The notes beneath the pieces are model-generated. The model was not told the origin of the DNA. It saw only the letters and a program-made list of their open reading frames with translations, and ran no database searches. Below, piece after piece: positions 6,295-58,643 of a stretch of DNA of 64,000 bases (positions are counted from its first letter, which is position 1; each line of letters opens with the position of its first letter). The translations under genes were made by a program, and so were the position numbers. This DNA is from Ginglymostoma cirratum. Lineage: Eukaryota. The stretch is from positions 2,484,612 through 2,548,611 of the forward strand of contig JAHRHZ010000127.1 in the NCBI GenBank assembly GCA_024137785.1. The letters run 5' to 3'.

Positions 6295-8631
6295 ATGCAT
6301 TCATCACCCAATGGCCTGCCCTTTGCCATTTACTATCCCCTCCTTGCAGTTATTGGTATTGCAGGTAAGCGACTGTAATAAGATTTCATTATGGTAGTCA
6401 TAGTTTATCTGCATCACTTTTCTCATTTTCCCATAATGACTCTCCATGGCATTGATGTTACTTCCACCCTTTAACGGGATCTCTTGTCCAAGTCAATGGG
6501 AAAAGCATTTTCTCTTCTAACTAACAAGATTTTTACTCTTTTTTCAGGGTCATTTATTTCCTTTTATACCGATATGATATCTCCATTTTCGCTCTCCTTG
6601 CTTTAACTGACATAATTGCTTTCATGTCCAATGTATGTGCCAAACTTAAATGGTTACGTATCTCTCTTTGGTGGACGTAGATTACGCACATTCCCACTCT
6701 AATTTATTCTTAACTCTTCATTCTCATGACCAGTGTCGTTTCATTTCCTTAATTCTCTACTTTCACACTTACTTCTGGCATTCTATCCTTTCTTTTTTCT
6801 GCCGGGAAAGTAATGTCATCTAGTATCACGGTATAAATGTAATTCTAATGTTTTATTGATGCTGTCACTTTGGGTGCATAATGGTGTAAATATAGTTCGA
6901 CTGTATTATTGACAACGTCAACATTACTGCACTCTTAACGTAGATAAAGTTTGTTCCTGAGACAGTTATTGCATCAATACAGTTTTTTCCCCCTGAGTGC
7001 AAGCAGTTTCTTATGCTGAATGTTAAAAGTATTAAATCAACGTATATTTAGCTTATATATTTTGATTAGTCATGACCTCGGTTTATCAGGCTATCAAAAG
7101 GACTACACCGCATGTATTTCTTTGGTCCTCAAGGCCTGTCATGATGCTTTAACTCAAAACACTGTGGCACAAAAAGTGAGAATGCAGTCAACCAAATTAT
7201 ATTAATAATGTTGTACAGACTATTTGCTTCACTCACTGCCTTTCAGCATTTTTGCCATAAATACAGTTGTTTCCATATTACTCTCAAGCAGGATATTTTA
7301 CGTGGTCAAATTTTCAAATAATTGTACATGATTTATGGGATCTTTTCACTTACAGTACGGTTATACCGTGCATTGGTGTTTCTATTTGATACTTCCTGCT
7401 TTTCACCACTTGGGTGATCAACTTCAGTCGCTCATCCTATCTTAGATTTTCCAGATAATGTAATTGTTCTTGCTTTCCCAATACTCCACATTGGTAAACA
7501 GAACCTAAGTGTTTTGATAGTCCTCTGTGGCATGAGAAAATGGTGTATTTGAGGAAGTATCGTTCTATAATGGGACAGAAGGTTTATCGAAAGCAATTGC
7601 TGAGTCTGACTTCTCATAAAACTAATGCCCGATATGTTAACCTTTCAAATTTTTTTTTTTAAATTTCCCTGTCTCTCAGTCATATATTCATTATGTTTGT
7701 ATACAAAGCAGCTAATTCAGCAGTAATCGTGATTCTAACCAGAAGAAAATGTGGTCTCTCCAAATGTGTCATATACTACTTGATATCAATGGCAGTTACA
7801 GATCTTCACGTTATGATATTTGCTGTGATACTAAACCGGATTGGACGTATATATCTTCCATTCAGCTTCCTCTCCATTACTCCTATCTGTCGTCTTAGTT
7901 TTGTGGCAATATATGGAGTCAGAGATTGCTCTGTCTGGGTAACAGTTGCTTTCACCTTTGATCGCTCCCTGTCTGTAACTACTCAGAAGCTGAAAACAAA
8001 ATTTTGCTCCAAGAAAACTGCAGCTGTGGCAATAGGAACCATTTGTGTTCTGAGCTGTATTGTAAATATTCCCTGGTATTTTGCATATGAACCTTCCTTT
8101 ATCGTTGACAATATACCCTGGTTTTGTCAAAGTAAGTCAATATTTTATACGTCACCATTATGGGTCTTATATGATTGGATTCTTATTATTTTAACTCCTT
8201 GTCTTCCATTCATTCTGATTTTGCTGCTCAATGCACTGACCGTCAGACACATCCTAGTGGCAAATATAGCACGTAGGCGACTCTGGGCGCAAGAAAAAGG
8301 AGATAATTGGAGTGACACAGAAATAGAGAAACGGAAGAAATCTATTGTTTTGCTATTTACTATTTCAGGCAGTTTCATTCTGTTATATTCTGTATTCTTT
8401 ATTACAATTTTCTATGTCCGAATTACAAATGCTACTTATTCTCCTGGTTCAAATTTCAGTAACGCTTCATTTATTCTGGATGAAAGTGGAACTATGCTCC
8501 AGTTATTGAGTTCTTGTATCAATCCGTTTATTTATGCAGGGACCCAAAGAAAATTTAGGGAAGAGTTAAAGAATGGTGTTAAATATCTACTGAGTCTAAT
8601 TGTAAGATCATCTAATAAATCAAAACAATAA
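6295..8631 (+). CDS. GPR139/GPR142-like class A GPCR, paralogue 1 (exon 1 6295-6364, exon 2 7712-8631; 329 aa, intact)
   Basis: Exon 1 encodes MHSSPNGLPFAIYYPLLAVIGIA and ends at donor G|GTAAGC. A phase-1 acceptor CAG|CT joins it in frame to the 7693 ORF. The protein is 7TM with YLISMAVTD, SVWVTVAFTFDRS, LLNALT and MLQLLSSCINPFIY (NPxxY). Confidence 0.9.
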
Positions 8632-9254
8632 AATTCAACCTATGTTGCACAATACAGCTCATTCTTGATTCTCATTGCCCATGTCATACACTGCCAGTCT
8701 CCACAGAACCATCGTTACTTGCTTTGGAAAGCGTGTACTCTCTGAACTCAATGATGAATGAGACAGGTTGTGTCATTCAGAAGTGCACATTGGTTGAGTT
8801 TTAACAAATTCCTTATGCAAACAATTCAACGCAACCAGAAGGTAACCAAGTATCGCTACATTCATGTGAGAGACAGACAGTCCAATGCCTGACTTGTTAT
8901 TTGATAATAAAATTGAAAAAAATCACGGAAGAACCTTAGAAACACCCCATACATGCGATTTTTCTTGAGGGAAGGAGTCACAGTCCTCATATTTCATTCC
9001 CCCATCATAATATATTTTCCTCAGCCACATCCCTGTGATACAAAGCATTGAACACGGGAACTAGTGAGATCTAAAAGCCGAAATGTCTAGTGCATATTCC
9101 AATCTTTTCATTGGATAGCTATGAAGAAATCCCTGCGTAATAAGTCATGAAACGGATCAAACAAAGGTTTGTATTTTTAATAGCATGCAAGTAGTAAACA
9201 ATTTTATGTACCAAATTTAATGCGAATATATACTTAAAGAGTTTAGTGGAACAG

Positions 9255-10252
9255 AGATAGATTGTATTTCAGATGTATGGTTCTCTGAAAGTGGAGTCAC
9301 AGGTACGCAGAGCAGTGAAGAAGGCTTTTGGTGCACTAGCCTTCATCAGTCAGGACACTGAGTACAGAAATTAGGAAGTTGCAGCTGTACAGGACGTTGC
9401 TGAGACTGCACTTGGAGAATTTCGTTCAGTTTTGGTCACCTTGCTATAGGAACGATGTTATATCATAGAATCCCTACAGTGTGGAAATAGGCCCTTCGTC
9501 TCAACAAGTCCACACCAAACCTCAGAGCATCCCACCCAGTCCCATCCCCCTATAACCTACACCTCCCTGAGGACTACAGGCAATTGAGCATGGTCAATCC
9601 ACCTAACCTGCACATCCTTGGACTGTGGGAGGAAATCCACACAGACACAGAGAGAATGTGCAAACTCCACACAGACAATCGCCCGAGGCTGGAACCAAAC
9701 CCGGGTCCCTGGTATTGTGAGGCAGCAGTACTAACCACTGTGCTACCATTCCACCCACTAAAGCGGAAAGAGTGTAGAAGAAATTTACAAAGATGTTGCT
9801 AGGATTCACGGGACTGTGTTATAGCAAGAGGTTGAACAAGCTAGGACATTTTTCTTTAGAGTGGAAGAGACTGTGGGGTAATCTCGTAGAAGTGCATAAG
9901 ATTACGGAAGGCATGGATAGGAAGAATGCACTCAAGTCTTTTTCCCAGATTTGGGAAATCGAGGACTAGAGGGCACCAGTTTAAGGTAAGAGAGGAAAGA
10001 ATAAATGGGAACCTGAGGGGCAACTTTTTTTACACAGAGCATGGTACGCAAAAGGAATAAACTGCCGACAGAAGTGTTTGAGGCGGGTATTTTAACAACA
10101 CTTAAAAGGCATTTGAACGAATCGATGGATAAGAAAAGTCTAGAAGAATATGGGCCAAGTGCAGGAAAATGTGTTTAGCGCGCATGGACAGTTTGTTGAG
10201 CATGGACAATTTCGGTCGAAGGGCCTGTCTCCGTGCTGTAGGAGCCTATTTA
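9255..10252 (+). mobile_element. CR1-group (HER1-like) LINE 3' fragment, interrupted by a SINE
   Basis: Degenerate RT C-terminus (RLHLENFVQFWSPCYRND ... ERVxKKFTKML) and the 3' UTR tail GGGCCTGTCTCCGTGCTGTA. Confidence 0.85.
9461..9750 (-). mobile_element. HE1-like V-SINE nested in CR1 LINE
   Basis: Same family as 2372-2668. Reverse complement begins ...TAGCACAGTGGTTAGTACTGCTGCCTCAC..AGGGACCCGGGTT. Confidence 0.9.
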
Positions 10253-10461
10253 CTGTTGAGTTCAATAAGCAGCTTGTTTTCCATACTTACAGCTGCATGT
10301 TGCAATAATAGTTATGACTAATTGCATTAGTTAGTAATGCTCAATTATTTTAGGAAAAATGAAGGCATAAAACAAGGAAAATGATCTTGCTAGAGACCTG
10401 CAGAAGTTTTCAGGAATGTGGAGTTAACGAGAAGACAATACTGGAGCCCGAGAATTACATC

Positions 10462-10776
10462 AAGAACAAAAACAAAGTTGCTGGAAAAGCTCAGCAGGTC
10501 TGGCAGCATCTGTGAACTAGAAAACAGACTAACCGTTTCGAGTCCGGTGACCCTTCCTCAGAACTGTAGGTGGCTGGGAAAACGTCAGTTTGTATGCAGA
10601 AAATAGGGAGGTGGGTGGGCTAGGGAGTAAATGATAGGATAGAGCCCAAAAGAGAGAGAAGGACAGTTGGACAGACAAAGGAGTTGCTAACGATCAGGCT
10701 GAGAGGGTGAGTAATTGTTAATGGGGACTGTTAGTGACTAACAACAGTGGGTGTGTAGTGGCAGGCTATGTGGTAA
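10462..10776 (-). mobile_element. Penelope-like element 3' end/terminal repeat
   Basis: Has the terminal repeat family plus CTGAGGAAGGGTCACCGGACTCGAAAC on the minus strand. Homologous to 14330-14610. Confidence 0.75.
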
Positions 10777-13700
10777 ATTAGAGAATTACATTGCTTGGGC
10801 ACAGTGGAAGGTCAGTGCCTTGTCGCAAGATTCTTTCGTGTTCAATTTATAAACTGCTGAATGAATGCAAGCCTCCCCGGCTCTCACCCCACACCATTCT
10901 CCCCAATACCCCGCGTTTCTCACAGGAAGGGCTTTAAACAATGTTATCTTGACTTCATACACGCTAATCGCTGTTGACACAGCACATTCAGAATTTGGAG
11001 CATGAATGACCTCATGATCTACATGTCCATGACTTTGTATAAGATCGCTATAAAGATGCAAAATAGGCCATACAAACGCATTTCTCAAACCATACTTAAT
11101 TGCAGGTGACAACTTAATGGATATATGTGTTAGGAAACATTCTGATTGTCATTTGAGAAAGCAAGGGGAAAAAATCTATTTTTTCAGTGTTTTGTTGCAT
11201 ATGTGGGAAATTCATCTTGACATTGACAGAGTCGGCACCAGACTGCAAGTTTTGCAATGTTTGCAATGCCACTAGTCTGTACCAAGGCAAGTGAAATTGA
11301 GAAGAGTTTGCGGGGATGAATTATCCGTGCCAGTCGCACAACAGAGAGTCACTTGTTACCTGGAAATTGAACCCAGGACACAGTCATGGCAGCACCTAAC
11401 CCATAACACAAGAACATAAAATAACCTGTCTGCACAGATCGAAGGTACACTTCCAATAGTTGGGGAATCCCTATTGCCTTGCAGTCTACAAAGGTCCATT
11501 CGTTTTGTTCTTCATACAGAGGAACTCCCAATTTTAAAGCCAAAAAATGATATCAATATTCAGTAGCTCAGGCATCATCTAAGACAGAGACAAACGGAAT
11601 TAAAGTTTCAGATCCATGATCTTCCATCAGAACGTGGAAAAGTGACAGATGGAACGTGCTTGAAACAAATACAGAGAAGGCGAATGGAGGAGAGAAGGGA
11701 AAATTCAACGTGAAGCTCTCAAGTGGATGAGGAGACAGGAGATATTGAATAACAAAAGGGGATAGTTGAACTTAAAATAGGATAGGGATGGAATAAGAAT
11801 AGAAACAGCAGATAGAATCACGGCCCTGCTGCGGGAAATTATTTCCCATTCACCAAGATGACTTCTGCTCCACACTGAAAACTAGCAAACCATTTCCACT
11901 CACCCAGAGAATAATAATGTCATTGATCAAAGCTACGCAGGTCACACAGAAAGAAAAAGAAAGTCTTCGTTGTAACTTGAATGAGGTCCGTGGAGAGCGG
12001 GTCCTAAATTTCACTTCTATAAACTACAGGATCATATTTTTCTTGTCTGAATCCCACTGGAAGTAAATCTGCTGATCTTCTTTCCCCTGAAAGTGGCTAT
12101 TATTATTCTTTGACTTGGAAGATTTTGATTGGTACAGAGACTTAATTTAATGCTATCACTTTGAAATCGTCACCATTCATTGAACACCAGTCTGCAGCTG
12201 CAAGCTTGTCTCCCATTCACTTCCAGGAGAGTGCATGAATATTTCTTTGATAAACCAGCAAGTGAAATATGAAGAAACTTGCAAGAGAAATTCTCTACTT
12301 GAGGCTTGATATTACCAGCGAAATAGAGAGCTAGTGCTCACCCTCGAGGTTCTCAAAATCACAACCTGAGATAATAGAGAACTTGGATTCACTCTGTGTA
12401 GCACCAATAGTTAAATCAAACCTATCGGAGTAGCGTGAAATTTCCAGTTTTACCATTATTCACTTAACAAAAAAAACAATCTCCTGACGTAGCACCTGAG
12501 GCCACAGTAGATTTCACAATTATTGCCAAGGGCACTGGTACCTCCTCCCTTGCCTCTCTCAGTATAAAGCATAGATTACATCGAATCTGGCCTTGATTAG
12601 CAATCTAATTTTACGGCTGCTGAACCCGGAAGTAACTGCACACTGTCTACGTTATTTTCCAATATATCTAAGTTTTCTATACTCATGCCCGCACCTAGAT
12701 AGTACTTTCCATTGTGTAGATCGACGTAAATATGCTTTCAAAACTATACTTAAGTTTTCCAAGTCAACATACAGATTACATCTGGTGTCGATGATGGGCA
12801 ATATTCTTCGCCTAGTTCTTCCCTTAATCTAAAATATTACTTAATTTTCGTTTATTCCACCTATCAATTATTTTCCTGCATTGTCTTAAATTTCATGATT
12901 TAATTTAATGTCCCCTCCTGCAGTATTGCAGACCTCTAGGGACACTGCTGTATTTAGAATTCAGGAAGATTATCTTCCCCCTCCTCCACCTTTACTTCCA
13001 TTTTTTTTCTGTCACTTAATGTCAAGAGTTCTCTGGTCTTTGTCCTTGTCCTTCACAGGGACATATTTGCCCTGTATTTAGCTGTTGTTGATGAGAATGT
13101 AAATATCTGATAAAAGTTTTGATGCCTTTTGCAACAATGGGTTGTTTTTCTGAAGCGTGTTAGTGTTATTCGGGGACTGAAAAAAATATGCATTTATTCC
13201 ATCAGATTTGAAATGCAGGAAGTATATTTTATGAAAAAACTATCAGAAGCTTAATGTAGCAGAGGATATAAGAGTATTCAAAAGAATACTTAACACTTTG
13301 TCTGTCACTTTGCTTGACCTGATGGCATTTTACTATTTTAGATATGTCGGTCTACTTGTTACTTTCTGGGTGGAGTCGCACAGTGTAACTGCGCACCAGG
13401 GATACCTCCTAACAAGTGTCTTTTTGTGCACAATCGGAGGAAGTGAATATTTAGCTCATTCTCCTTAACATTAATAGGCAGCGAAACAGTTCTCCAAGGA
13501 GCAGGGTGGAGCAATAGCACTATGCTCGATCCAAAACCAAGAGAATGATAGATGCAAATCCATCATAATGATTTTATATACAAAAGCTACATTGAATTTG
13601 ATTCACTGGATGCTGTGTAGTAATCCCCTGCCTTATTTTGATAGAAAGATTTCTCTGTGACATGGGACATCGAGAAGGACAAAGACATCAGCAGACCGAT

Positions 13701-24810: not shown

Positions 24811-25560
24811 ATTTGGAAAGGAGGACTTTGCAGGTCCGACAGGGATACTTTATTTTGTCATTCCCAATGCGTGGATCGAGGCCAGATGGTAAGTCCTGAT
24901 TTATTTCGTTTTGTACACACTAAATGAACTCGTAATAACTAGGCCTGTGCACCTCGAATATGCAATGCATGAAACAGATTTTACATTCTATGTGATAGAT
25001 AGAACCACGTTGCTCCTGATCAGTGAGTATACGGGTTGAATCATAATCAGGAATGAAATTTTGATAGTTCTTTTTTTGAAAATTTGTATTTCTCAGCCAG
25101 GATAACAAAGAACATTCATTTGGCCTGTGTCGAGAAAGATTTTGTTTAAGTATAAGCAAAATTAATTCCAGTTATCCTGTAGGCTTTGAGTATTTTATTT
25201 TCAAGCTGTCAGATCCCTTGGGGTAAAAAAAAGATTTATTCCATCAAGATATAAACAATAAGTGAGCAGCAGCTGCAGCAATTTGTTTGTTGTAATGATT
25301 GCAGTAAAGGTATATCGAAATATAAACTAATCTCCCTATAGTCTGACATCCATTATAAACATCGCCATTTCTCTGTGATATGCTCACTCAGACTTCCTGA
25401 GAGAAATGCATACATTGCTAACAGGTCTTGTGTTCACCATTTAGAATCTCATCCTTGCAGCTATCGGGCTTCAAGGTACTGTAGTTCCTTTGAAACGGCT
25501 TGGTCTACTGATTCGCGACAGGAATTTGACTATTTTGCAAGCAACACTTCTCTTTCATGA

Positions 25561-25690
25561 GAGATAATAGGAACTGCAGATGCTGGAGAATGCGAGATAA
25601 CAAGGTGTGGAGCCGAATGAACACCGCAGGCCAGGCAGCATCATAGGAGCAGGAAAGCTTGACGTTTCGGGCCTAGACCCTTCATCAGAA
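25561..25690 (-). mobile_element. Penelope-like terminal repeat with hammerhead-like core
   Basis: Minus strand reads CTGATGAAGGGTCTAGGCCCGAAACGTCAAGCTTTCCTGCTCCTATGATGCTGCC. Confidence 0.8.
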
Positions 25691-26282
25691 AGAAAGGGTC
25701 TCTTTCATAACTTTTTTTACACATTGATGATATTAATTTCGACACGATCTCTTCAATTAACGGGCACATTTTGCGGCATTATGTCATAATCTCTCACAAT
25801 GTAGGAGGATAATGTTTCTTGCATCGCTCTTTCAACAATCTAATTTTTTGCATTACCTGGAAAATGCATCTCCTGAAAAAATGCGTGCTAATTTGCTTTG
25901 ATGGGTAATATTTGATCACTGTAATTACATAGCATTTCCATTTCACTGCGAACATCTTGTAATGAAAATAGCATTCGAATATATTGTTGATCTTCTATTG
26001 CGTGTGAGTTATCACGCTGTTATCTCAGGGTAAGTTCATGGACTAAATTTATCAATAATGCTATTCTTAGTTAATTATCAAGCAGTTATTGTGGTGTCAA
26101 CATAGTTCTGATACTGCAGCGATAATAATACTGTTGGTGAATTGTCACTGTTTTCAGAACATGAACGATGAGTGTGCTTTTTAAGCAACGATTCTCTAAA
26201 AGAATCAATATATTTTAAGGAAGTTAGGAAAGCAAGTCTTTGTTTTTAAAAACAAAATAAAAAGGCGGATGCTGTAAATTAG

Positions 26283-26462
26283 AAACAAATACAGAAGTTG
26301 CTGGAAAAGCTCAGCAGGTCCGGCAGCATCTGTGAAGAGAAATCACAGTTAATGTTAAAGGTCCTGTGACCCTTCCTCACCGGACCGGAAACGTTAACTG
26401 ATTTCTCTTCACAGATGCTACTGGACCTGGTGAGCTTTTCCAGCAATTTCTGTTTTTTGTTC
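26283..26462. repeat. long inverted repeat made of two opposed Penelope-like terminal repeats
   Basis: CAGAAGTTGCTGGAAAAGCTCAGCAGGTCCGGCAGCATCTGTGAAGAGAAATCA is mirrored by TGATTTCTCTTCACAGATGCTACTGGACCTGGTGAGCTTTTCCAGCAATTTCTG. Confidence 0.9.
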
Positions 26463-26921
26463 TTTTGATTTTGACAGAGACGGCATGATTGCCACAAATG
26501 ATTCGTTGAGTGATTCCTGAAATAACGTAATGAGTGAATTTATTAAACAGATGTGTTAAAGTACCAAACTGGTTACAGTATATAAGCAACATATGATTAT
26601 TCCTTCAATGGATTAGCAATTGCCTCTAACTTCCAGAGCACACTTCCGTTCTCAGTCTATAATACTCACTGCTTCAGCCTGGCTCTCCACTTTCACATTC
26701 GCTGAAGCTGCTTATGAATTGTTGGCCGCAAAAATGTGAGGTGTAATTCTCATAATGACACATCGGAAATGCTTGAGACTGTTCCACTCCGTGCTTTTGC
26801 AAAAGCTGGTTTTGTTTGGAATTCTCACTGAACAACGTTAATACGGAAAGGAAACAGCGAGTTTCAGTGATTGCGTAGTTAAGGAATTGAACATATGACA
26901 GGGAAAAGCGGCTTGCCGCGT

Positions 26922-26997
26922 GGCGTCTTGGTTTGGTTGCTTTAAGCATCTCACCGAGTTGACAGAATGATTCTGTTTTCGTCTCCCAGCGGTGCCT
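26922..26997 (+). pseudogene. tRNA-Thr(AGT) highly degenerate copy
   Basis: GGCGTCTTGGTTTGGTTGCTTTAAGC...TCCCAGCGGTGCCT, in the same duplicon position as 30224-30297. Confidence 0.6.
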
Positions 26998-32604: not shown

Positions 32605-33160
32605 GAGATAAAAGGTACTGCAGATGCTGGAGAATCCGAGATAACAAGTTGCGGGGCTGGATGAACACAGCAGGCCAAGCAGCATCATAGGAGCAGGAAN
32701 NNNNNNNNNNNNNNNNNNNNNNNNNNNNNNNNNNNNNNNNNNNNNNNNNNNNNNNNNNNNNNNNNNNNNNNNNNNNNNNNNNNNNNNNNNNNNNNNNNNN
32801 NNNNNNNNNNNNNNNNNNNNNNNNNNNNNNNNNNNNNNNNNNNNNNNNNNNNNNNNNNNNNNNNNNNNNNNNNNNNNNNNNNNNNNNNNNNNNNNNNNNN
32901 NNNNNNNNNNNNNNNNNNNNNNNNNNNNNNNNNNNNNNNNNNNNNNNNNNNNNNNNNNNNNNNNNNNNNNNNNNNNNNNNNNNNNNNNNNNNNNNNNNNN
33001 NNNNNNNNNNNNNNNNNNNNNNNNNNNNNNNNNNNNNNNNNNNNNNNNNNNNNNNNNNNNNNNNNNNNNNNNNNNNNNNNNNNNNNNNNNNNNNNNNNNT
33101 TCCTGCTCCTATGATGCTGCTTGGCCTGCTGTGTTCATCCAGCCCCACAACTTGTTATCT
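32605..33160. mobile_element. Penelope-like terminal repeats in inverted orientation flanking an assembly gap
   Basis: 32639-32699 is the near-perfect reverse complement of 33100-33160. Confidence 0.8.
32700..33099. other. assembly gap (400 N)
   Basis: Run of N. Confidence 1.
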
Positions 33161-38955: not shown

Positions 38956-38959
38956 TTTT

Positions 38960-42678: not shown

Positions 42679-42770
42679 GTGAATGTTTAAAAAAAAACAA
42701 CGGCCATCTAAACAAAAACAGCAGCAGAGCAGAAGAAGAACAATGAATTAAATAAACGTAAAAATCAATC

Positions 42771-42810
42771 TAATTAATGGTCTCCCCAGGGACTGAAATC
42801 AGGTATAAAT
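42771..42810 (+). promoter_or_regulatory. putative core promoter of GPCR gene 2: homeodomain site, O/E(EBF) palindrome and TATA box
   Basis: TAATTAATGG (42771-42780), TCCCCAGGGA (42783-42792; canonical TCCCNNGGGA), a 12-nt spacer, then ATAAAT (42805-42810) within TATAAAT. Confidence 0.65.
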
Positions 42811-42868
42811 GATATATACCCCTCCCTCTTCACTGAGTCAGAGATGACATTGAGAGTTTCAGAGAGAA

Positions 42869-45800
42869 ATGCACGAAATACCAAAAGGTCTGGTGTTTGC
42901 CATTTACTATCCTGTCCTTGCTGTGATTGGAGTTCCAGGTAAATTATGGTAATTATAAACTACGTAAATCAATGGCGAAGTGCACGAGATCTCCTCGTTT
43001 TCAGGGAGAGACGCGTCACCGAGGTACAGATATCCGCCCTGTCATTAAAGGGAATATAGTTATTCTGTAACTGGTATGATGAGCTCCCTTCAACTGATAT
43101 AATTTTCATTCTTGTATTCTCTACCTTTCTGGAAAATTCAGCATTTTATCATCATGTTACTTTCCATTTACTGACAGAATCTTATGACATTCATGCGTTA
43201 TTTCTCGACATTAACATTATTATTTCGTCACTTTACTGACACACACTTTTATTAAATGATTAATTGGTACCTTTTAATAGTCGACTATCTTACTGCGATC
43301 ATAAACATTTAATGAATTTAATTGCGCTATTTCCTTTATTTACTGTGAGCACATAAAGCAAATAGAATTCTGTTTTGTCAATACTATTTTTACTGCAAGT
43401 GAATTGTCAGATTGTTATCAGTGTGTAAAATAATTTTATTGTGTCATTGACAATATATTTTGGGCAAATCCAGCTAGTGATAATGTTGTAAATGCAGTTC
43501 GATATGGCAATGACAATCCTTTGGTTGTATTTTCTATTTGCCATCTGAAAAGCAGTTCTTTTGTATTATTTTCGCTGTCTTTCTCGGTGATTTGCTGTGT
43601 CACTGTCAGAGGTAAGTATACTTTTATCCTGCAATTTACTTTCACTATGAGGGGATAATTCTGACAATTGAGTTATTGTTCCTGTCCTCTGGCGGTATTG
43701 AACAGTTCCTATCTGCCATTACTGATTGAGTTTCTTGAAGGGACATATTAATTATGAAGCAGTTTTGTGATGTACTGCCAATGTCAGAGTTCTCTTCCAT
43801 ATTCAAATACTTATGTTTCTCTGACTCTTAGAGCATTGTTAGAATTAGAATTAGATTTTATTGTCACGTTTGCTCAAGTACAGCCATGCAGGAGGATTGT
43901 GAAAAAGTTTACAATGTTGCCATTCACGGCGACATCTTAGGTACAAGGTATCGAGGTACAAAATCTCAGGTAAGGAGCAGAAAAAATACAATAAAGCAAA
44001 GTTAAAAGTGCAACATTAGCTATTGTCAGTATGAAGTAGTAAATAAGAAATAAAGTTTAAACTTCCAAATCACAGTCCTGGTTCAACCATGGGCCTGCAG
44101 TTGCTCAACGCTGGGCTTTCCCCATAAGGGCTGGTTCTCCGTCCCATGCTGAGCTGGATCTCTCGGGCCCCCTGCCGCTGCTCGCCATCTCACTGCCGAT
44201 CATTGTCCGTCTCCGGTCTCCCAGTCACTCCCATAATTCCAATGGCCACCAGAATTCTGCCCGAACACACCAATCACCTTGTGTCTGACCGGCAAACTCC
44301 CTGCTCTGGGCCTCCAGCCGCTCCCGTCGCCACCACTGCCTTCACGACTGAACTCCCTCCAGCAAGTAAGTAAAGAGAATAAAACTAAAATGGAAGAAAA
44401 CAAACTCAGAAAAGAAGAAAGAAAAGTGGTTGGAGCGGACAAGCTCTGAATTAGGAGCCCTACTCCAGTGTGTCTATTCTCACCTACTAACACTCATTAA
44501 TTCTGTCCCAATCAACTCCTCACCATTTGCTGCTGCAGGATCTAAATTGACAATTACTGAATATTCTAATTACTCGCGGCGGCAGGAAATATTTCAGACT
44601 GTTATATAGTCACTATTTTCTCCATGTTGAGTGAATCTGCAATCCTGTTGGCAATTAACATCTAATTTGAAAGATTTTATTTCAAACGTCCAATATGATA
44701 ACGTTGATATTTTTCTTGAAAGTGCAGTAAAGCACCATTAAAGTTTTGTGCTGTAACAGGCTCCTTCTTCGCACGAGATCCCATCATCTGTCAGTTCCCA
44801 TGGCTCAGACTGACTTTCCAGAAATCATGTCGCTGTTTGGTAAAAGGTATGAATCTAACATTGCAACTTTCCAAACATTTATTCTGTGAAGTTGGCGAGT
44901 CCATTCTGCTCTTGGTGGCGTCTTTTGACAATTGAAAGATTACTTTCCCAGCAGTTGAATGATTTAATCATCGAACTGAGTTAGGTTTGTCTCCTAGTGA
45001 TCTTTAATTCATCTCCCAGTTAGTTTCCAGATTTATTGGCAGTTTATGTGTTGCTTACTTCCTTGAATATTTTCCATAGAGCTTTGCTGATGTAAATACC
45101 TTCCTGTCTGTCCCTTATCCAATTAGTTGCATTGTTGCCACACTAAGTTGTTTGATTTTAATTTAAAGGACAATTATAAACCCTGAAGTCAATTGTGTCA
45201 CATTGAAAATAATATGCACAATTGCATCTCAAATTTTATATTTTCACACTTGATCCTGTCAAATAGTGAGTTACTTGAGATTAGATACAATACTTGCCCT
45301 AATCGCGAAATAAACTCTCTCTTACTCAATTATAGCTAACTTGGCAGTTGTTGTGATCCTGTCTCGAAGAAGATGTGGTCTTTCTGAAGGTATCACTTAT
45401 TACCTGGTGTCCATGGGGTGACAGACTTCCTCGTTATGGTAACGGCTGTAATGGTAAACCGGATTTCTGGTATTTATTTTCCATCCAGTTTTCTCTCAAC
45501 CACACCAGTATGCCGTTCTCGTGCTGCCTTAAATATGGCAGTCATTGACTGTTCTGCCTGGTTAACGGTGACTTTCACCTTTGATCGTTTTATTGCCATT
45601 TCCTGTCAGCAGCTGAAAATAAAGTATTGCACTGAGAAGATGGCATCGTGTGTTATAGGAATCGTAACCTCACTCTGTTGTATAAAAAACATCTTTATAT
45701 ATTTGCAACTAGAACATAGGTACATCATTAATAATATACCTTGGCTCTGTGTCATAAAATCAATATACTACACATCACCAGCATGGGCGGCATATGACTG

Positions 45801-46245
45801 GATTCGACCTATTTTAACTCCTTTTCTCCCATTCATTCTGATTTTACTGCTCAATGCCCTGACAGCTAGACACATTCTAGCGGCTAACAGAACCCGTCAG
45901 AAACTCCGGAACAAAGGCAATGGAGACAATAAAAGTGATCCAGAAGTGGAAAAACGAAGAAAATTGATTGTCTTGTTATTCGCCATCTCAGGCAGTTTCC
46001 TCCTTTTGTACTTGTTATTTTTTGTCAATATCCTTTACGTTCGAAGTACAAATCTTACTTATTCAGCAGGTTCCAATTTGTAAATTTCCACCTTGGTTAT
46101 AGAACAGAGCGGATATATGCTTCAGTTGTTGAGCTCATACATTAACCCATTTATTTATGCTGTGACCCAGAGCAAAATCAGACATGAGTTTTAAAATGGG
46201 GTGAAATATCCTCTCATCATAATCGTTAAACTTTATAAATTCTGA
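42869..46245 (+). pseudogene. GPR139/GPR142-like GPCR pseudogene, paralogue 2 (exon 1 42869-42938, exon 2 45336-46245)
   Basis: Exon 1 encodes MHEIPKGLVFAIYYPVLAVIGVP with donor G|GTAAAT; the acceptor is TAG|CT. A 1-bp deletion at ~45416 gives ATG GGG TGA, and there are in-frame TAA codons at 46081 and 46192. Confidence 0.9.
43839..44485 (-). mobile_element. non-autonomous non-LTR element (Rex1/L2-like tail) in the pseudogene intron
   Basis: Minus-strand 3' end GTGACAATAAA plus a (TTCTAA)n tail; GC-rich body. Confidence 0.45.
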
Positions 46246-49520: not shown

Positions 49521-51950
49521 ATCTTATAGATATTAAATGTGCTTTTTTTTTCACTAGCTGAGTTTTTCCAATTGCATGACATGTATGACATGTCCTGCAA
49601 AATTCAACAACATCCTTGTGCAGTCCAGACCAACAAAATGTTTTCTTTTTTGCTTGTGTTTTCCTTACTCCGACATGACCTGCTATTGGTAATTCATGTG
49701 CTACCCGCAGTACCTCCTTTCTGTCATCCACCAGTAATATAAGCTGATGAACTTCTGCCCATTTCTCATTCGTCTGAATATGTGACCGTCTCGATTTCCT
49801 CATGGAGAAGTCATTCCTAAGATATAACATTGTGGGATACATTCTGATTCTTCTTCTATGTATGATTTTTGATACAACGGTTTTAACCTTTCACATTTCT
49901 GTTGTAATTCAGTGAATTTCTCTAAACAAAAATATCCACTTTGTCCTCTACCTGTTTATGTCTTTTTCTCAACTATTAATCAAACATTGTCTCTGATAAC
50001 TGAACTACAACTTTCTTATCTTTGCTCTTTAATTTCTCTTCCTCCTTCAATCTATCACTTTGTGACATCATTACCACACAGTCAGTAAAAATCCCAGAAT
50101 ATACTTCCTGTTATACGTAAACTGCAAGATATTTCACTGTCTTATCAATTAAAGTAGGTATCACTCCCACCTGTGACCAACTGTATCATTATTAAGAATA
50201 CACTCTATGTCCGGAAACCAGATTTTCTCTATGAACCTTGTCACTGTTCACCTGACTTGCCAACCTCACCACATATCATGGAAACTGCTCTTCCTACCAC
50301 GAATTTAACATATTACCATTTTTTCTGGCAAAAATCTGACAGAATTGATTATCTACCCAACTCCTACCATCAAAGATTGATTTTCTCCTGCATCTCTTAA
50401 AGTTTTATTTTCCTTACCTGCTCCTCCTAGCATAAAATGATTAAACTTTACACCTGCAAGTACATTCTTTAAAGAGTTCTGTGTTTTCTTCTCAACGAAC
50501 CCCTGACCTGGATTTTTTTTTTTTTTTTGCAGATTTCCAGCTTCCACTGTGCTTTTCTTTGCCATTTCAACAAAACTGACTGGCTTATTCAATTTTCCTC
50601 ACATGCGTCTTCCAGTGTTTGTTCCTAAACCATTAATACTGCCACTTCATGAAGTCTTTTTTTAACCCATGAAAGCAGTTTAGCATTTAAACTTCTCTTT
50701 CCCCCTCATGGGTTTTCTTTTTACCCTGTTGTAAACCATCTATGCTACCTTCAATGAGATCTCCTTTTCCCTTATCACCTGAAGATTGTGCTTTTCCCTA
50801 ACTTCAATCCTTCACAATTTGAAATTGATGTTGGAAGCCAAATTTTGATTTATGAACCAATTCATAATAATCGGCCATTTCCACTGCTAATCATGCAGTC
50901 TTACTTCTCTGCTCTTCCACATAATTTCACATTACTTCAGCGAGTGAATTTTCAAAATCCTGAAAAAGAATAGTCTCTCTAAGAGCGTCATACGTTTGTT
51001 CTATTTTCAGTGCCTTTTTCCATCTATCAAAATTATTTTGTTTGATCCTTTCAAACTCGATGAATGTTTGACCAGGTTTCCTCCTTAGATTCCTGAAAAG
51101 CTATCTTTCAGCTTCTCGTACGAGCTCAAATGCACTTAATACATCAATTTCACCTCACTATGCTCCCCAGATACCTCCTCTGATAATGATGCAAATATCT
51201 CACTCGCTGTCCGCATCAGTTCGTTTGGATCAATAATACCCACGTTGTCACTGGCAATTTCAGTGTTGGTTGCTTTCTCAAATGAAATGAAAAAAAAAAG
51301 CCTCTACATCCTTCTTATGGAACCTAGGCAATGCTTGAACATATCTAAACAAACCCACCCACCCCTAGGTCTTTGGCTGTGAAGTGTTTGCTCGTCATCA
51401 CTATCTTTTTCACTACTCTTATTTTTCACCTGTACATTGACTTTGAGTTCACTTCACCTGAAGAAGGAGCAGTGTTCCAAAAGCTTGTGATCTCCAGTAT
51501 ATCTGTTGGACTACAAACTGGTATCCTGTGACTTCTGACTTCGAGCTAAGTCGACTTTGAGTTTTTGGTTCCAACATCTGAAGTTCAACAACTCTCTCTT
51601 CGTTTTTGCTCTCTTTCTTCATTTCTTTTGCTAAGGCCTTCCTCTCCTGTTGCTTTCCTTCTGAAAGAATTTTTTTCTTTTTAGTTTTCCTATCCATTCA
51701 AACTGTTCTATTTCTTTTTCATGTTCAAGCTGCTTCATTTTCCAATCAAAGTTAGTCATTTCCATTGATTCCAATGACATTCTTGACAGTTTTAAATGCA
51801 ATGTGATTGACACGATTTTCCTCACAGACACAGGCAACCACAATACCAGCTTGTTTGCCAATTCTGAAAGATTTGCTTTCTCACTTTCTGCAAAAGTTGT
51901 GAAGTGACTTCTCCCACAGCCAGGAAACTCTTCATGAAAACAAACCTCTC
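49520..51950 (-). mobile_element. Gypsy LTR retrotransposon relic, Gmr1-like (gag to integrase zinc finger)
   Basis: Minus strand has the gag motif LFRYVQALPRFHKKDVEAFF at ~51295-51352, a coiled-coil at 51560-51800, and the integrase HHCC motif VLRVAHELPIAGHVGVRKT...VVEFCRTCHTC at 49575-49720. Confidence 0.8.
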
Positions 51951-54019
51951 TTTTCTCTTTCTATTATTTGAGTTGAAACTTCAAAGATATTTAAAATGAC
52001 AGTGAGGGATCATTTATGACTGATGGATTTTACTCTTTGTCTGAGAACGTAAGGAAACTCAGATAATCACTTTTTAGCAATAGGGTAATCATTCCCTGAA
52101 TGCTACTTACTGACTAAATTAACAGGAAAGCTACCTTTTGTGTAATACCATTTCACGACACTTACCAATATAGATATTGTGTACTGACAATTCTTTAGGT
52201 GAGGTAGTTGCTGACTTTTTGTGATATGACTCTCAACTGAATGTAGTTGAAGATATTAGCTATAATTATTTTAAATTGTTTGCTCAAAAAATTATTAAAC
52301 TGTAATTTTGGGAACTTTTAGTTAAGCTTTCAAGATAATTATGGCACTTTCGATGTTTCCGAACAGGCACTAAAATCTACGGAGAATAAAAACACGAAGA
52401 AGCTCATGTATGTACCCATAGCAATCTCTTTGATACCAACCAATGAGCAGAAGACACAGTAAAGTTATAATCATACACATATATTCAAGGATTAGTAATG
52501 AAGACCGCATTTAAACAAACAGTGGGATATATATGACATAAAATTTTAAAAATGCTGGAAATCAAAATCAAAAGATGGAAATCGAATGTTAGAATGTGCA
52601 GGCACAACATGGCGCAAATAATGTTCAAATCAGCTTAAAACAAAATGTAGAATCGAAAAAAATCATTTAAATTATTTAAGATCTGTGTTCAGAATCAAAG
52701 AGCACGGAAGCATTAAATAGTTCATATTTTTCTGTGATAAGATTATTGGTGCACAAAGGTTGAACAAAATTATGTACAATTAAATACGTTGTCATGATAA
52801 ACACCTGCTGGTCAACCACTATGATTTGGTATTTTAATCTAATTCAAACCTCCATCTCCAAAGACCCCACTAGATATCAATACCTAGAAGGAGATGTGTT
52901 TTTCTTGATCAACATATAAAAAGGCATAAAATTTATTGGATATGATATACATTGCTGCCTTAGCTTGTTTAAATTAATATTATGTAATTTGCAACAGCAA
53001 ATGATTTTCATGAAAATTAGGCACTGTCTGAGTAATTAAAGGAGTTTGATTGTACTGGCATATGTTTGGAGTCATAACTTTTGATTTCAAACTACTTGCA
53101 TATTAGGTAAATCTTTAACTTAGCAAGGTTTAAAATTAACATGTCAAATATAGGAAGGGTCACTGGATTCGAAAATTCACTCTGCATTCTTTCCACAAAT
53201 GCTGCTCTTAGGTAGACGTTACATGGTAAATTTCGAGGACACGAACAGCTTGCAGGAGAAAGAAAATGGTAGCTCCCCTATAGGCTTCTGGCATAGTTCA
53301 AATCCTGTTCAACCTTTATATTACCGACCTATCTTCCACCCCCGACTCAGTTCCTAATTCTTATCTACACGGCCTCGGATTTTTCCTTCCAGTACAATAA
53401 TTAGTAAATGGCGATATTGCGAACTGACTCACTCCTGCAAGGCAGGGTACCTGAAAACAAGAAGCATGAACGAAATCTCTAGCGCATTCCACTTTCACAA
53501 CGCTAGTCACTAGAGCATGATAGCATTACTATAAATAGCCAGAGTCAGGAGTATGAGCCTTGATTATTGTAAGCGTACCCTTGACAGAATACTCATTTAA
53601 TACAACATCTCTGCATGAATGGAAATCAAAATGGAATCTGCTACAGGTTCCTTATTAAACGGGACTGTATGTCATGTGAATTACAAGCTAAAAGTCTAGA
53701 AAATGCATCTTGTCATCAGATCGCCAACTGCAGAATACATTGGTACGGTATTGGTTAAATCTTCATGAGCTAACCTCATCGACGTAAAACTGAAAATGCC
53801 AATGTGAATATCGTAGGTACTCTTCCCCGTAGGTACTATTCGCTACACCGCTACCCCCTCTAAATACACAAAATCTCAATTTGTCCACTGCTCCCACACC
53901 CACAATTCCCGCTCCCCCTCCCCCCAAAAAAACAAACCTGACTCACAGTTCTCAGCAACAGTAATACATATCGGCTATTTACAAAAGGTAAGCTCATATG
54001 AAAGCATTATACGAAAACC

Positions 54020-54142
54020 AGCATGGGGCTGGATGAACACAGCAGGTCAAGCAGCATCATAGGAGCAGGAAAACTTGACGTTTCGGGCCTAAACCATGCT
54101 TGTTATCTCGGATTCTCCAGCATCTGCAGTACGTTTTATCTC
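54020..54142. mobile_element. Penelope-like terminal repeat with internal inversion
   Basis: 54020-54095 is the reverse complement of 49204-49279. The sequence then continues in forward orientation as CCATGCTTGTTATCTCGGATTCTCCAGCATCTGCAG. Confidence 0.8.
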
Positions 54143-55792
54143 TCATTCGAAACCAGGTTCGTTTATGTTCAATCCCCATAACCCAGCAACTGTCGGTATT
54201 TCCCAAGACCACAGTATTGCAGTTGCAGCCATAACGCCGAGAAGGAAAATTAAGGGCCAATAGCATGAATATTGGCAGGATAAAAAGCTGGCACATATCT
54301 GTCACTCCATTGCATGTCAAGCTGCCTTTAATCACCTCTGGTGACTCCGATAGTTGGTTGTTTTAAACTCGTTCCTAAACTGACCAATGCTTCTGTTCAT
54401 CCACTAAATATCAATGGAGTAGTCAAGAACATCCAGCGAATAGCTGTGGGGAAGTTCAAGCAATGGCTTCCATTGTCGAGGGGAAATATCAGACTGAACT
54501 TGGTACTGATTTAATAAATTTAACTTAGCTCTTAACAAGGTCATTTATTGACTGTGTGATTATTCACAGGCCAATGAAATATTATGTATAACAGAAGAAC
54601 ATGACAGGTATTGTTGATTAGAAACGCAACGCGGAAGAACCTGTAGCATATATGTAGAATAAATTTCAAGGCAGTCAGATAATGTCCTACGTGTTTTGTT
54701 TTATTTGTGTCAAATCTAACCTTTGTTGCCTTTGAATAACCCATTGTGGCAGTAGTTCATTTGAGGTGCACTTCCTCACGTTGAAACTACTGTTGCCAAA
54801 TACGTTCCTGTCAAATCAAAATATAAACATGCAGAACTTAAGTGTACTAGATACTAGAAGTTTGATTTTTTTTTATTAACATGACATAAAAGTGCTGTGC
54901 TAAACTTGTGCTAAATAAACGTTGACCTGAATGGTATTTGTGAAATCGTACTGCAGATTCACTGGAGGTATAACTGCTACGAACTATCGAACTCACACAG
55001 AAGCCTAATATTACAGAAACTGTTCCGTCCACACTGAAATTAACCATGAAGAGCTCATTTTATGAGTGCTGGCTTTAATTATCTGACCCAGACCTGGAAC
55101 TGGCTGCACTGAATATGACTGCAGTGCAATGCAGCTGACCACAATATATACTGTAAATGGCACCTATCCCTGACAGTACCGGATTATGCTTCAATCAGTT
55201 GATATAAAGAGGTGTAATCATTGGAACTTGCACAAGGTGATTATAACATTTCTGAACTGACTTCGTTGGATTGATGGTATAGATAAGATGTCATGCTCAA
55301 ATGCAAATATGCATAACACACGTAGCTGTAATGAACTGAATATCTTCACGAGGAACTGCCCCTGCCCACATTAAATATATCAGCAGTGACCTGGGATAAT
55401 TTATTACTGAGCACACCCATGAAGCATTGGTCCTGCGCTCAGCGAAAGCAAATCTTCTTAGTAGTATGTACCCACATCTGATATGGAGTTTGTTAATTTA
55501 AAGTGTGTGCCCAAATTCAAGGGAATTTAAAACCACAGTGCGCTGATTCACGATTGCATGGACATTAAAGTGATTCAGACACAGGAATACACATCTGCTT
55601 TCTTTTTTAGGAAAATTAAAATTTCTCAATACTCAAAAGACACGAAAACCATCGCCTTGTACTAACTTCAATTTCAGGGTAGTTTTGGTTTACATTGTGA
55701 CCTCTTGTGGCTTGATTTTAGAGACACATGACGTCGCAGGGGAAAAGACTGTAACATTTGAAAAAGAAATATCAACTATAGACTAAGCAATT

Positions 55793-55843
55793 TAATTACC
55801 GCCCCACCCCCCGTCCCCCCGGAGGCCGACACCATCGATAAAT
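55793..55843 (+). promoter_or_regulatory. putative core promoter of GPCR gene 3: homeodomain site, O/E-like site and ATAAAT box
   Basis: TAATTA (55793-55798), CCCCCGGAGG (55816-55825), a 12-nt spacer, then ATAAAT (55838-55843). Confidence 0.55.
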
Positions 55844-55893
55844 GTAACCATTTTACAGTTGATTTCAGAAAGTGTGCGAAGCAGCTGACAGAA

Positions 55894-57659
55894 ATGCACG
55901 AAACACTAACTGGTCTGCTTTTTGCCGTTTACTATCCCCTCCTTGTATCCATCGGCGTTCCAGGTAAAGTTTTGGTCTAAATGAGTAAGTACTTTTACGA
56001 GTCATTGGCAAATTGAATTGTTTTTCCGACTTCACGACATATGCATCTGCATGTTCCAGGTATCCTTTGCCCCATTGAATGGAATTTTTTTCTTCTTCAG
56101 AGTTAATAGTATAATTACTTTAATTGAATAAATTATCTTATTTTACAAGTTCAGATTCAATTTTAAGCATATTCATTCACCATTTCAATATGCAGATCTC
56201 TACTATCTACTGACATATTATGATTTCTCTCTCATTTACATGCATATAGAATCATGTGAATCCAGTCGATTTTTTTAATACCGATAGACTCATCACCTGA
56301 AAGGATTTCATCCATATTACCACTAACCTTCCACAATGGAAATTATTTCCGTAGTTCTGATGACGATGTTCTTGCAGTTCTATTGTTTGTGTTGGTGGCA
56401 ATATCATTGTTGGTGACTTGCTGCAAAGATCTTATGGTGCAAAATTATTGTCATAATGAATTGAAACTGCTGTTGCACATATGTCGTTACACACCTGTCA
56501 CAGGGTTAGTGAGGTCGAGTTGTATTGTTATCACTGTTTCAACGTGTGAAATTATCATGGTGAATATGTGGATTTGTTGCGTTAATAACAATGACTGGGA
56601 CAGAATAATTTGCATTATTGATACATTACTAGTGAATATTGAACTGTTGAACGAATACTAATCAGTTCAATGAGTTGTTATTAATGCGTCATTATTATTT
56701 ACTGAAATGTTCTCTGATGTACAGGTAATTCAATAATTACTTTCTTTAAAGAATGATTAACGTTAATGCGTAGCTCACAGAGCAGTATCCGTTTTCTCAA
56801 TCTGGAGCCTTCACTGCTTTATACCTGTTCTCCACTTCCTCATACGTTGTTGTAGATTTTTCTAAGCTATTGACTGCTGGGTATGGGATTTGTTTCCAAT
56901 TCGAGTATCCAACGATGTTTCCCGCTGTTTCAATCTCGACGATTTTTCCCACATTGAGTAATTCCACACAACTAATTTATAAAGTTTATGAATCGAATTT
57001 CCACTTTCATCGAGAAGGCTTCTCTTTCATCGAGAAATCACTGTGCAGTTTGGAGAAACGACTGCATTTTCGGTAGTAATTTCTCGGTGATTGAGAGCTC
57101 ATTTTCTGGCAGTTCCAGTCGTTCAGTAATCATAAGCTGACGTTTCGGATTTGCTAATGTCTTAAACAAAATGCGCTTCACAAATTTGCCTAAATCTATT
57201 TAGCAAGACGCATCTCTCAATCGGTTGACATTTTTCAGTAAGTCCACAGCTGACTTTTCCGACTGTGATCAATTTTTAAATAATGTGATGGGAATGAGCC
57301 ATTCAAAGTGATATAATTGTGCTCATTCTAGATTCCATATTTACTGATGGCTGTTTTATTATTTGCTTATTTAATAATGTCTGCAATACTTTACTGTTAT
57401 AATATTTTAGGGTTGTTTCGATCGTGTCCTGTTCTCCAAAAGGTCACTGTCGAATCTATTTCATTAACATTTCATTGGCCTGCCTTGTTTTGAATCTAGA
57501 TCACTGTTAAATCTAATAAATAATTACTTCTTGAGTGGAAGTTTTCCTTTCAATTTAGGATTCAATCTAATACTTTATATTTCACAGGGGACCGTTTTAA
57601 AAGATTTATTTTGTTGGTTGTCAAAGATTTGATGTTTCAGCTGTGTTTTCTTTCTCCCC

Positions 57660-57692
<33 letters not shown>

Positions 57693-58643
57693 GCACGCAC
57701 AAAATCCCCCACACATGCACACACAGCTAACCTTGCAGTCATCATTATCCTGGCTCGAAGAAGGTGTGGCCTCTCTGGATGTATTACATGTTACCTCGTG
57801 TCTATGGCAGTTGCAGATCTCCTCGTCATGGTCGTGGTTGTAATATTAAATCGGATTGCTGGGATTTATTTCCCATCTAGTTTCCTTTCCATCACACCAA
57901 TTTGCAGTCTTCGTTCTGCCTTGAATTTTGCAGCAATTGACTGTTCTGTCTGGTTTACTGTCGCTTTCACCTTTGATCGATTTGTTGCCATTTGTTGTCA
58001 GAAGCTAAAAACAAAATACTGCACTGAGAAGATGGCACCACTGGTGATTGGAATTGTGTTTGGAGTATCATTCACCAGAAATATTTTCACGTATTTTGGT
58101 TATGAACCTACGCACATGATTAACAATGTGCCCTGGTACTGTGGCGTGAAAGATGTATACTATACTTCACCAGCATGGGCTGCATATGACTGGATTCGAA
58201 TCATTTCAATGCCTCTTCTCCCCTTCCTGTTGGTTTTAATACTCAATGCGCTGACAATTAGACACATTCTACTATCCAATAAGGCCCGCCGGAGATTCCA
58301 TACCCACAGAAATGGTGAGAAAGTGATTGACCCAGAGATGCAGAGGCGGAGAAAGTCCATTATTTTTCTCTTTACCATCTCTGGCAGTTTCGTTGTGTTA
58401 TATTTGTTATGTTTTATAACTGTGCCCTATGTCCGACTTGCCAAAGTGCGGTATTCTCCAGGTTCAGATTTCAGTAACTCCACATTTATTCTGCAACAAA
58501 GCTCATTTATGCTTCAGTTACTGAGTTCCTGTATCAATCCATTTATTTATGCTGGAACGCAGAGTAAAATCAGAGCTGAATTAAAGAAAGGTGTCAAATA
58601 TCCACTGAGAATATTTTTGAAAATATTTACATTTTCAAAATAG
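55894..58643 (+). CDS. GPR139/GPR142-like class A GPCR, paralogue 3 (exon 1 55894-55963, exon 2 57727-58643; 328 aa, intact)
   Basis: Exon 1 encodes MHETLTGLLFAVYYPLLVSIGVP with donor G|GTAAAG. The acceptor CAG|CT AAC is in frame with ORF 57798-58643, which has SVWFTVAFTFDRFVAICC and MLQLLSSCINPFIY. Confidence 0.9.
57646..57726 (+). repeat. (CT)n(CA)n compound microsatellite at a splice acceptor
   Basis: CTCTCTCTCTCTCACACACACACACACACACGCACGCAC...ACACAG. Confidence 0.9.

What the first reader, a model, noticed from the sequence alone, without database searches (positions are those of the whole stretch)
6295..58643. Tandem GPR139/142-like receptor cluster as a candidate uncharacterised chemoreceptor family of cartilaginous fish
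Seen: three same-strand paralogues share one architecture (70-nt coding exon 1, phase-1 intron inside TM1, one large exon 2) and a very short N-terminus, with visibly divergent TM3-TM5/ECL2 sequence. Known: mammalian GPR139 and GPR142 are single-copy receptors activated by aromatic amino acids, amino acids are major aquatic odorants, and elasmobranchs have very few classical OR genes. Inference: a tandemly expanded, diversifying relative of an amino-acid sensor with OR-like promoters may be an unrecognised chemosensory repertoire.
Basis: partly seen in the sequence, partly recalled or inferred. Interest (0 to 1): 0.75.

Follow-up and report, generated by a model that had tools for sequence, protein, structure and literature searches.

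The report
Huge overlooked shark sensory-receptor family
The receptor genes in this window belong to a family of at least 300, probably 500-800, related cell-surface receptor genes in one shark genome, whose variable outer surfaces and shared olfactory-style promoter motif suggest they likely act as chemical sensors in animals thought to have only a few dozen smell receptors, although where they are expressed is untested.

Summary
The shared gene structure is real, but only two of the three copies are intact. The middle one is a pseudogene (frameshift, two early stops), and a fourth, broken exon 1 lies at 25406.

They belong to a very large family: one motif matches 311 places in this genome, and an estimated 500-780 loci exist, about two-thirds intact. 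Twelve shark species have relatives, most labelled 'probable GPR139'.

Trees and a shared TM1 intron place the family with GPR139, GPR142 and a third single-copy fish gene. True GPR139 and GPR142 exist separately, and none of 97 members keeps GPR139's full Trp/Phe pocket.

Variation is concentrated on the outer face. An unbiased motif search finds an O/E (EBF)-like site in 31 of 32 promoters, often flanked by a homeodomain site and TATA box, as in mammalian odorant-receptor promoters. Shark V2R promoters lack it.

Best reading: an undescribed chemosensory repertoire (0.6); the main rival is immune sensing. Expression is untested. I found no paper describing it; the scan noted the same family earlier in a ray (e1-7813824).

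The parts
6208..6243 (+). g1 proximal promoter module: homeodomain-like site, O/E (EBF)-like site at 6217-6225, TATA-like box at 6238-6243
   Evidence: motif identity is from a recalled consensus, binding untested
6295..6364 (+). g1 coding exon 1 (23 codons + 1 nt), GT donor in phase 1
7712..8631 (+). g1 exon 2, open frame, TM1 end to stop; 329-aa class A GPCR with DRS for the usual DRF
25327..25475 (+). orphan fourth copy: promoter module (25327-25359) and exon 1 (25406-25475) with in-frame TAG at codon 13; no exon 2 found in the window
42770..42809 (+). g2 promoter module: homeodomain site, perfect O/E-like palindrome at 42783, TATA box at 42804
42869..42938 (+). g2 coding exon 1 (open)
45336..46245 (+). 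g2 exon 2, pseudogene: 1-nt deletion near 45417, stops at 46081-83 and 46192-94
55792..55842 (+). g3 promoter: homeodomain site, weak O/E-like site, TATA-like box at 55837
55894..55963 (+). g3 coding exon 1, GT donor in phase 1
57727..58643 (+). g3 exon 2, open frame; 328-aa class A GPCR, predicted seven-helix fold (mean pLDDT 82)

Best explanation
These genes are members of a family of several hundred class A GPCRs in the GPR139/GPR142 clade that expands and decays by tandem duplication in sharks and likely serves as a chemosensory repertoire, each receptor predicted to bind a different external ligand while signalling through a shared intracellular face. Shown: family size, clusters, pseudogenes, clade, outer-face variability, a conserved promoter motif. 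Inferred: that the motif is bound by EBF (O/E) and a homeodomain factor and drives sparse expression in chemosensory neurons (nose or another chemosensory epithelium); that ligands are peptides or amino-acid derivatives, since the clade's protostome relatives are peptide receptors and the exact Trp/Phe pocket of GPR139 is not kept; that all members use one G protein.
For: Size: 311 and 260 exact matches to two exon-2 motifs (reversed controls 2 and 0), 199 to an exon-1 motif (control 0), estimate 500-780 loci, against 3 strong OR matches and 50 NCD3G (class C, mostly V2R-type) matches in the same genome. Birth and death: 32 of 49 motif-picked exon-2 loci intact. Outer-half TM entropy 1.95 bits vs inner 1.05 over 50 representatives (p 2e-11); single-copy controls 0.77 vs 0.66 (GPR142) and 0.58 vs 0.66 (C39 lineage). 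In a young 16-gene clade dN is 0.36 in the extracellular loops and 0.04 in inner TM. Promoters: homeodomain+O/E adjacent in 20 of 74 proximal regions vs 3 distal, 2 intronic, shuffle mean 2.9; O/E followed by TATA in 22 of 74 vs 1, 1 and 0.8; present in 12 and 18 of 33 non-alignable promoter groups; de novo search returns an O/E-like word as top motif (log-likelihood 134 vs 31-43 shuffled), in 31 of 32 training and 30 of 39 held-out promoters. O/E-like plus homeodomain sites mark most mouse OR promoters, and O/E-like sites V1R promoters (PMC3247230 passages). Precedent: nematode srw genes are a birth-and-death family related to FMRFamide/myosuppressin receptors (PMC2576165 passages), the clan to which GPR139/142 belong (PMC8514136 passages).
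Against: No expression evidence in any tissue. The positive control failed: 18 V2R-type promoters of this genome are not enriched for the module (2 of 18 vs 2 of 18 distal; de novo motif 5 of 18 vs 4 of 18), although V2Rs are the receptors shown in the catshark nose. Sharks lack ciliated olfactory neurons, the cells that use OR-type promoters in bony vertebrates (PMC10116579 section 13). The held-out promoters are related to each other and 14 of 39 of their distal regions also score. Positive selection is not shown: loop dN/dS is 1.66 (1.11-2.35) against gene-wide dS but 0.82 (0.50-1.23) against local dS, and whole-gene dN/dS is 0.20-0.48 in five clades. EBF also drives B-cell and many neuronal genes (recalled).
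Confidence: 0.6

Rival explanations
1. The family is an immune sensing repertoire on leukocytes, recognising microbial or damage-derived peptides in the way formyl-peptide or Mas-related receptors do.
For: Young clades with hypervariable extracellular loops and uneven dS suggesting gene conversion also fit host-pathogen arms races; EBF is a B-lineage factor (recalled); V2R promoters do not share the motif.
Against: A homeodomain site lies in 25 of 32 proximal promoters vs 10 of 32 distal and 5 of 25 other GPCRs, an OR-like pairing; the tree does not group the family with chemokine or angiotensin receptors; whole-gene dN/dS is purifying. One nurse-shark spleen paper's single held supplement does not name GPR139 (weak, 4,750 characters).
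Confidence: 0.2
2. The family senses internal or gut-lumen metabolites and peptides in brain, enteroendocrine or gonadal cells, extending the role of GPR139 (brain) and GPR142.
For: Membership of the GPR139/142 clade; 35 of 97 members keep three of four pocket residues; GPR139 is brain-expressed (PMC5430874 abstract).
Against: Hundreds of divergent pockets and about one third pseudogenes are unlike receptors for endogenous ligands; the true GPR139 and GPR142 orthologues persist as single copies with the full pocket; the 500 nt before the ATG of GPR142 and of the C39 gene show no homeodomain+O/E+TATA module (start sites unknown).
Confidence: 0.12
3. The expansion is mostly neutral duplication in repeat-rich small chromosomes, inflated by uncollapsed haplotypes, with little function.
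For: Many copies lie on small contigs; pseudogenes are common; the window is otherwise LINE/SINE-type repeats.
Against: dN/dS 0.20-0.48; pairwise identity median 48%, 95th percentile 69%, so few copies can be haplotype duplicates; relatives in 12 shark species; promoter motif kept across non-alignable flanks.
Confidence: 0.08

Closest known systems
GPR139 and GPR142 (class A orphans activated by L-Trp/L-Phe)
   Same: One clade (100/97 and 97/99 support); same phase-1 intron two bases before the TM1 Asn codon; YY motif in TM1.
   Different: 21-23% identity; true orthologues are separate single copies on C23 and C82; 0 of 97 members keep F3x33, H5x43, W6x48 and N7x38 together; hundreds of copies instead of one.
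Single-copy third lineage of the clade (G000:C39, L046); probably one of the fish/coelacanth sets named GPR210A/B by Rinne et al. 2019 (PMC6504862 passage; identity not tested)
   Same: Best non-family score against the family profile (104 bits vs about 39 for GPR139/142); sister in all three trees (94; 98/97; 90/85); same intron; short N-terminus.
   Different: Conserved single copy in sharks, rays, chimaera, coelacanth, lungfish and ray-finned fish, no tetrapod among the 119 of 120 listed (of 183) that could be judged by name or are unnamed; no outer-face variability. The AU test does not reject other orders within the clade (p 0.08, 0.25).
Vertebrate odorant receptor (OR) and V1R repertoires
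   Same: Large clustered birth-and-death family, compact coding region, variable outer pocket, O/E-like and homeodomain sites near a TATA box.
   Different: Not homologous beyond class A (no 7tm_4 match at E 0.001; OR falls outside the clade); coding intron; expression unknown.
Nematode srw putative chemoreceptors
   Same: Birth-and-death expansion out of the FMRFamide/myosuppressin receptor clan, proposed to sense environmental peptides (PMC2576165); Atlas neighbours carry the Srw Pfam.
   Different: Independent expansion; the window's proteins do not match PF10324 at E 0.001 and only one family member scored in the genome search; no invertebrate sequence was in my trees.

Membership tests
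Class A (rhodopsin) GPCR | Seven TM helices, 7tm_1 match, N1.50, D2.50, R3.50, P5.50, Y7.53 | tested here: met
GPR139/GPR142 clade | Groups with GPR139 and GPR142 against other class A receptors | tested here: met
   grouping with TRHR rejected (AU p 0.015); outgroups were this genome's own receptors, several partial, no invertebrates
GPR139/GPR142 clade | Phase-1 intron just before TM1 Asn1.50 | tested here: met
   AG acceptor at that place in 64 of 66 loci scored, the two misses being mis-picked GPR142 sites that one search shows to conform; 6 loci not scored; donors
GPR139 or GPR142 proper (orthologue) | One-to-one orthology with the vertebrate gene | tested here: not met
   separate single-copy orthologues exist
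GPR139 or GPR142 proper (orthologue) | Trp/Phe pocket F3x33, H5x43, W6x48, N7x38 (PMC5430874 abstract) | tested here: not met
   0 of 97 keep all four, 35 keep three; g1 and g3 keep one; GPR142 keeps all four in 40 of 40
Vertebrate chemoreceptor repertoire | Large clustered family with birth-and-death turnover | tested here: met
Vertebrate chemoreceptor repertoire | Ligand-side variability with conserved signalling side | tested here: met
Vertebrate chemoreceptor repertoire | Positive selection on the pocket | tested here: inconclusive
   result depends on which dS is used; no site model run
Vertebrate chemoreceptor repertoire | Olfactory-type promoter (O/E plus homeodomain) | tested here: inconclusive
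   strong enrichment in the family but absent from the genome's V2R promoters; factor binding untested
Vertebrate chemoreceptor repertoire | Sparse expression in chemosensory cells; activation by external chemicals | not testable with these tools
   no RNA holder listed; catshark supplement unreadable
Restricted to cartilaginous fish | No expansion in bony fish, cyclostomes or tetrapods | not tested
   119 named of the best 120 hits are sharks, but 1608 further hits were not listed and the profile search of representatives could not be run

The most novel reading that the evidence does not exclude
Sharks have a seventh vertebrate chemoreceptor family, derived from a peptide-receptor lineage next to GPR139/142, with several hundred members, ten times their known olfactory receptors, expressed under an OR-type promoter code; the view that sharks trade discrimination for sensitivity with a tiny repertoire would be wrong.
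Probability: 0.5. Interest if true: 0.93.

Novelty: new variant of a known kind. Interest (0 to 1): 0.78.

Why it matters
Cartilaginous fish are reported to have 20-62 complete olfactory receptor genes (mean 43.8; PMC10869828 passage), a paucity of GPCRs (PMC8455134 passage), and a nose tuned for sensitivity rather than discrimination (PMC10116579 abstract). A repertoire of 300-500 intact variable receptors hidden under the label 'probable GPR139' would overturn that picture and can be tested at once with existing catshark and bamboo shark RNA-seq. If it proves immune instead, it is still one of the largest undescribed GPCR expansions in a vertebrate. It would also be a vertebrate parallel to the nematode srw expansion from the same receptor clan.

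Tried and rejected
Expression: no RNA holder listed. Two runs guessed to be RNA hold contigs of paralogues over exon 2, but no splice join was seen, one contig runs from the intron end into exon 2 unspliced, and the tissue is unknown, so they may be DNA: not used as evidence. Two short read motifs had no exact match in 107 loci. Supplements: the catshark atlas file was too large to read; no 'GPR139' in 12 of 24 files of PMC8455134, 1 file of PMC10529500, the readable files of PMC12361510 (one unreadable) and PMC11589584 (one unreadable). Unseen supplements may mention or quantify the family. The profile search of 1.84 billion representatives could not be run (tool not ready, then queue full), leaving taxonomic range and invertebrate outgroups open. 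Fold search gave only generic peptide-type class A receptors. Best PDB sequence hit TRHR was rejected as the nearest kin by the tree. V2R promoters as a positive control failed. No GPR139 exon 1 was found by pattern (one search returned GPR142 only), so its donor and promoter were not seen.
Full report
What is in the window. Three + strand copies share a 70-nt coding exon 1, a phase-1 GT-AG intron inside TM1 and one large exon 2. g1 (6295-6364, 7712-8631; 329 aa) and g3 (55894-55963, 57727-58643; 328 aa) are open and match Pfam 7tm_1 only. AlphaFold gives g3's exon 2 product a seven-helix fold (mean pLDDT 82) that resembles peptide-type class A receptors generally. g2 is a pseudogene: a 1-nt deletion near 45417 and stops at 46081 and 46192. 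A fourth exon 1 at 25406-25475 has an in-frame TAG and no exon 2 in the window. Long frames elsewhere are repeat-like. So the cluster is two intact genes, one pseudogene and one fragment. Another family exon 1 lies about 7 kb before the window.

Family size. The genome (4.36 Gb, 289 contigs) returned 129 scored matches of 1333 candidates, all at least 46% identical to g3. Two strict exon-2 motifs match 260 and 311 places (reversed controls 0 and 2), an exon-1 motif 199 (control 0). The listed places give 298 distinct loci on 59 contigs, a few possibly chance; capture-recapture gives 500-780 (it assumes independent detection and rests on the first 100 places of each list). Of 49 motif-picked exon-2 loci 32 are intact (one exon-1 locus dropped from the 18 flagged), so roughly 330-500 intact genes. 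Pairwise identity among 97 intact members has median 48% and 95th percentile 69%, so haplotype duplicates cannot explain it. The same genome has 3 strong OR matches and 50 NCD3G matches. In the protein collection 1728 hits passed; of the 120 listed, 119 are named and all come from 12 shark species, galeomorph and squalomorph, mostly labelled 'probable G-protein coupled receptor 139'. A single-copy gene of this genome is 97% identical to its whale shark orthologue, which points to a carpet shark.

What it is related to. The label needed testing, because TRHR outscores human GPR139 by sequence. The genome holds true single-copy GPR142 (92% to white shark GPR142) and GPR139, 21-23% identical to g1 and g3. 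It also holds a third single-copy relative on C39, conserved in sharks, rays, chimaera, coelacanth, lungfish and ray-finned fish; Rinne et al. name such fish sets GPR210A/B (PMC6504862, passages; no shark in the text; identity not tested). Three trees put family, C39 gene and GPR139/142 in one clade (98; 100/97; 97/99) and the family sister to the C39 gene (94; 98/97; 90/85). Family plus TRHR is rejected (AU p 0.015); the order inside the clade is not settled (p 0.08, 0.25). Outgroups were this genome's receptors, several partial, with no invertebrates. Independently, all share an acceptor two bases before the TM1 Asn codon (64 of 66 scored; the two misses are mis-picked GPR142 sites), and GPR142 and the C39 gene have the same phase-1 donor. 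The lineage is thus older than the shark-bony fish split; whether only cartilaginous fish expanded it I could not test.

Ligand side. GPR139 needs F3x33, H5x43, W6x48 and N7x38 for Trp and Phe (PMC5430874, abstract). Shark GPR139 and GPR142 keep all four; 0 of 97 family members do, 35 keep three, g1 and g3 one. So amino-acid sensing cannot simply be carried over. Variation is lopsided: outer TM halves 1.95 bits, inner 1.05 (50 representatives, p 2e-11), whereas 40 GPR142 and 40 C39 orthologues show no such gap. dN/dS is purifying overall (0.20-0.48 in five clades). In a young 16-gene clade the loops have dN 0.36 against 0.04 in inner TM; the ratio is 1.66 against gene-wide dS but 0.82 against local dS, so positive selection is suggested, not shown, and gene conversion may be at work.

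Promoters. In 74 promoters, recalled consensus sites gave homeodomain+O/E adjacent in 20 (distal 3, intron 2, shuffles 2.9) and O/E followed by TATA in 22 (1, 1, 0.8); these occur in 12 and 18 of 33 groups whose flanks do not align. A motif search with no prior returned an O/E-like word as best motif (log-likelihood 134 vs 31-43 in three shuffles), scoring in 31 of 32 training promoters vs 6 of 32 distal, and 30 of 39 held-out vs 14 of 39 distal. [quoted passage not shown] Against: 18 V2R-type promoters here show no enrichment (5 of 18 vs 4 of 18; other GPCRs 7 of 25), and sharks lack ciliated olfactory neurons (PMC10116579, section 13). The motif is real and family-specific; its reading as olfactory is inference.

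Mechanism and rivals. Most likely each receptor presents a different outer pocket on a common signalling face and is expressed sparsely in chemosensory cells, detecting peptides or amino-acid derivatives (0.6). The clade's protostome kin are peptide receptors (PMC8514136, passages), and nematode srw genes are a parallel expansion from that clan (PMC2576165, passages). Rivals: immune sensing (0.2), internal metabolite or peptide sensing (0.12), neutral expansion (0.08). No expression evidence was obtained. The catshark atlas reports no GPCR among the top 50 genes of a pooled brain and olfactory library (PMC11979771, section 11), which says little about sparse receptors.

Novelty. The proteins are in automatic annotation, but full-text searches for GPR139 or its long name with shark, cartilaginous, chondrichthyan or lamprey, and for shark GPCR expansions (listings seen) showed no paper describing the family; term look-ups in PMC11979771, PMC8455134 and PMC10620051 found none. 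The library lacks most subscription papers and I saw few supplements. An earlier agent of this scan noted the same family in a ray genome (e1-7813824); I did not check its range claim. I rate it a new variant of a known kind, a chemoreceptor-like repertoire from a lineage not known to form one in vertebrates, with interest 0.78.

Noticed in passing
G000:C2 8.2-9.4 Mb (L232-L237): At least six tandem muscarinic M2/M4-like receptor frames, two of them truncated, lie interleaved with family members: a second local GPCR expansion (name from recalled sequence likeness).
   Followed up: no
L165-L177, L196-L216 (C6, C7, C21, C101, C102, C109, C110): A young subfamily has a longer exon 1 (up to 280 nt) whose N-terminus is built of repeated units of about 14 residues with N-x-T glycosylation sequons, and introns of 10-20 kb in some members.
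   Followed up: partly
L046, L283 (G000:C39): A conserved single-copy third member of the GPR139/142 clade in cartilaginous and bony fish, with no tetrapod among the listed hits; mislabelled GPR139 in databases.
   Followed up: partly
L244:2714-2848 (about 7 kb before the window start): Another family exon 1 on the minus strand, of the long N-terminus type, so the cluster extends beyond the window.
   Followed up: no
window 7960-7985: g1 departs from the family's DRFVAICC stretch (reads DRSLSVTT); 4 deviations at conserved columns, reached by 16 of 97 members, so possibly impaired but not an outlier.
   Followed up: partly
window 26281-26463: A 183-nt inverted pair of a short repeat (81% self-complementary) inside repeat-rich DNA; window also has many LINE/SINE-type fragments and a 400-N gap at 32700-33099.
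   Followed up: no
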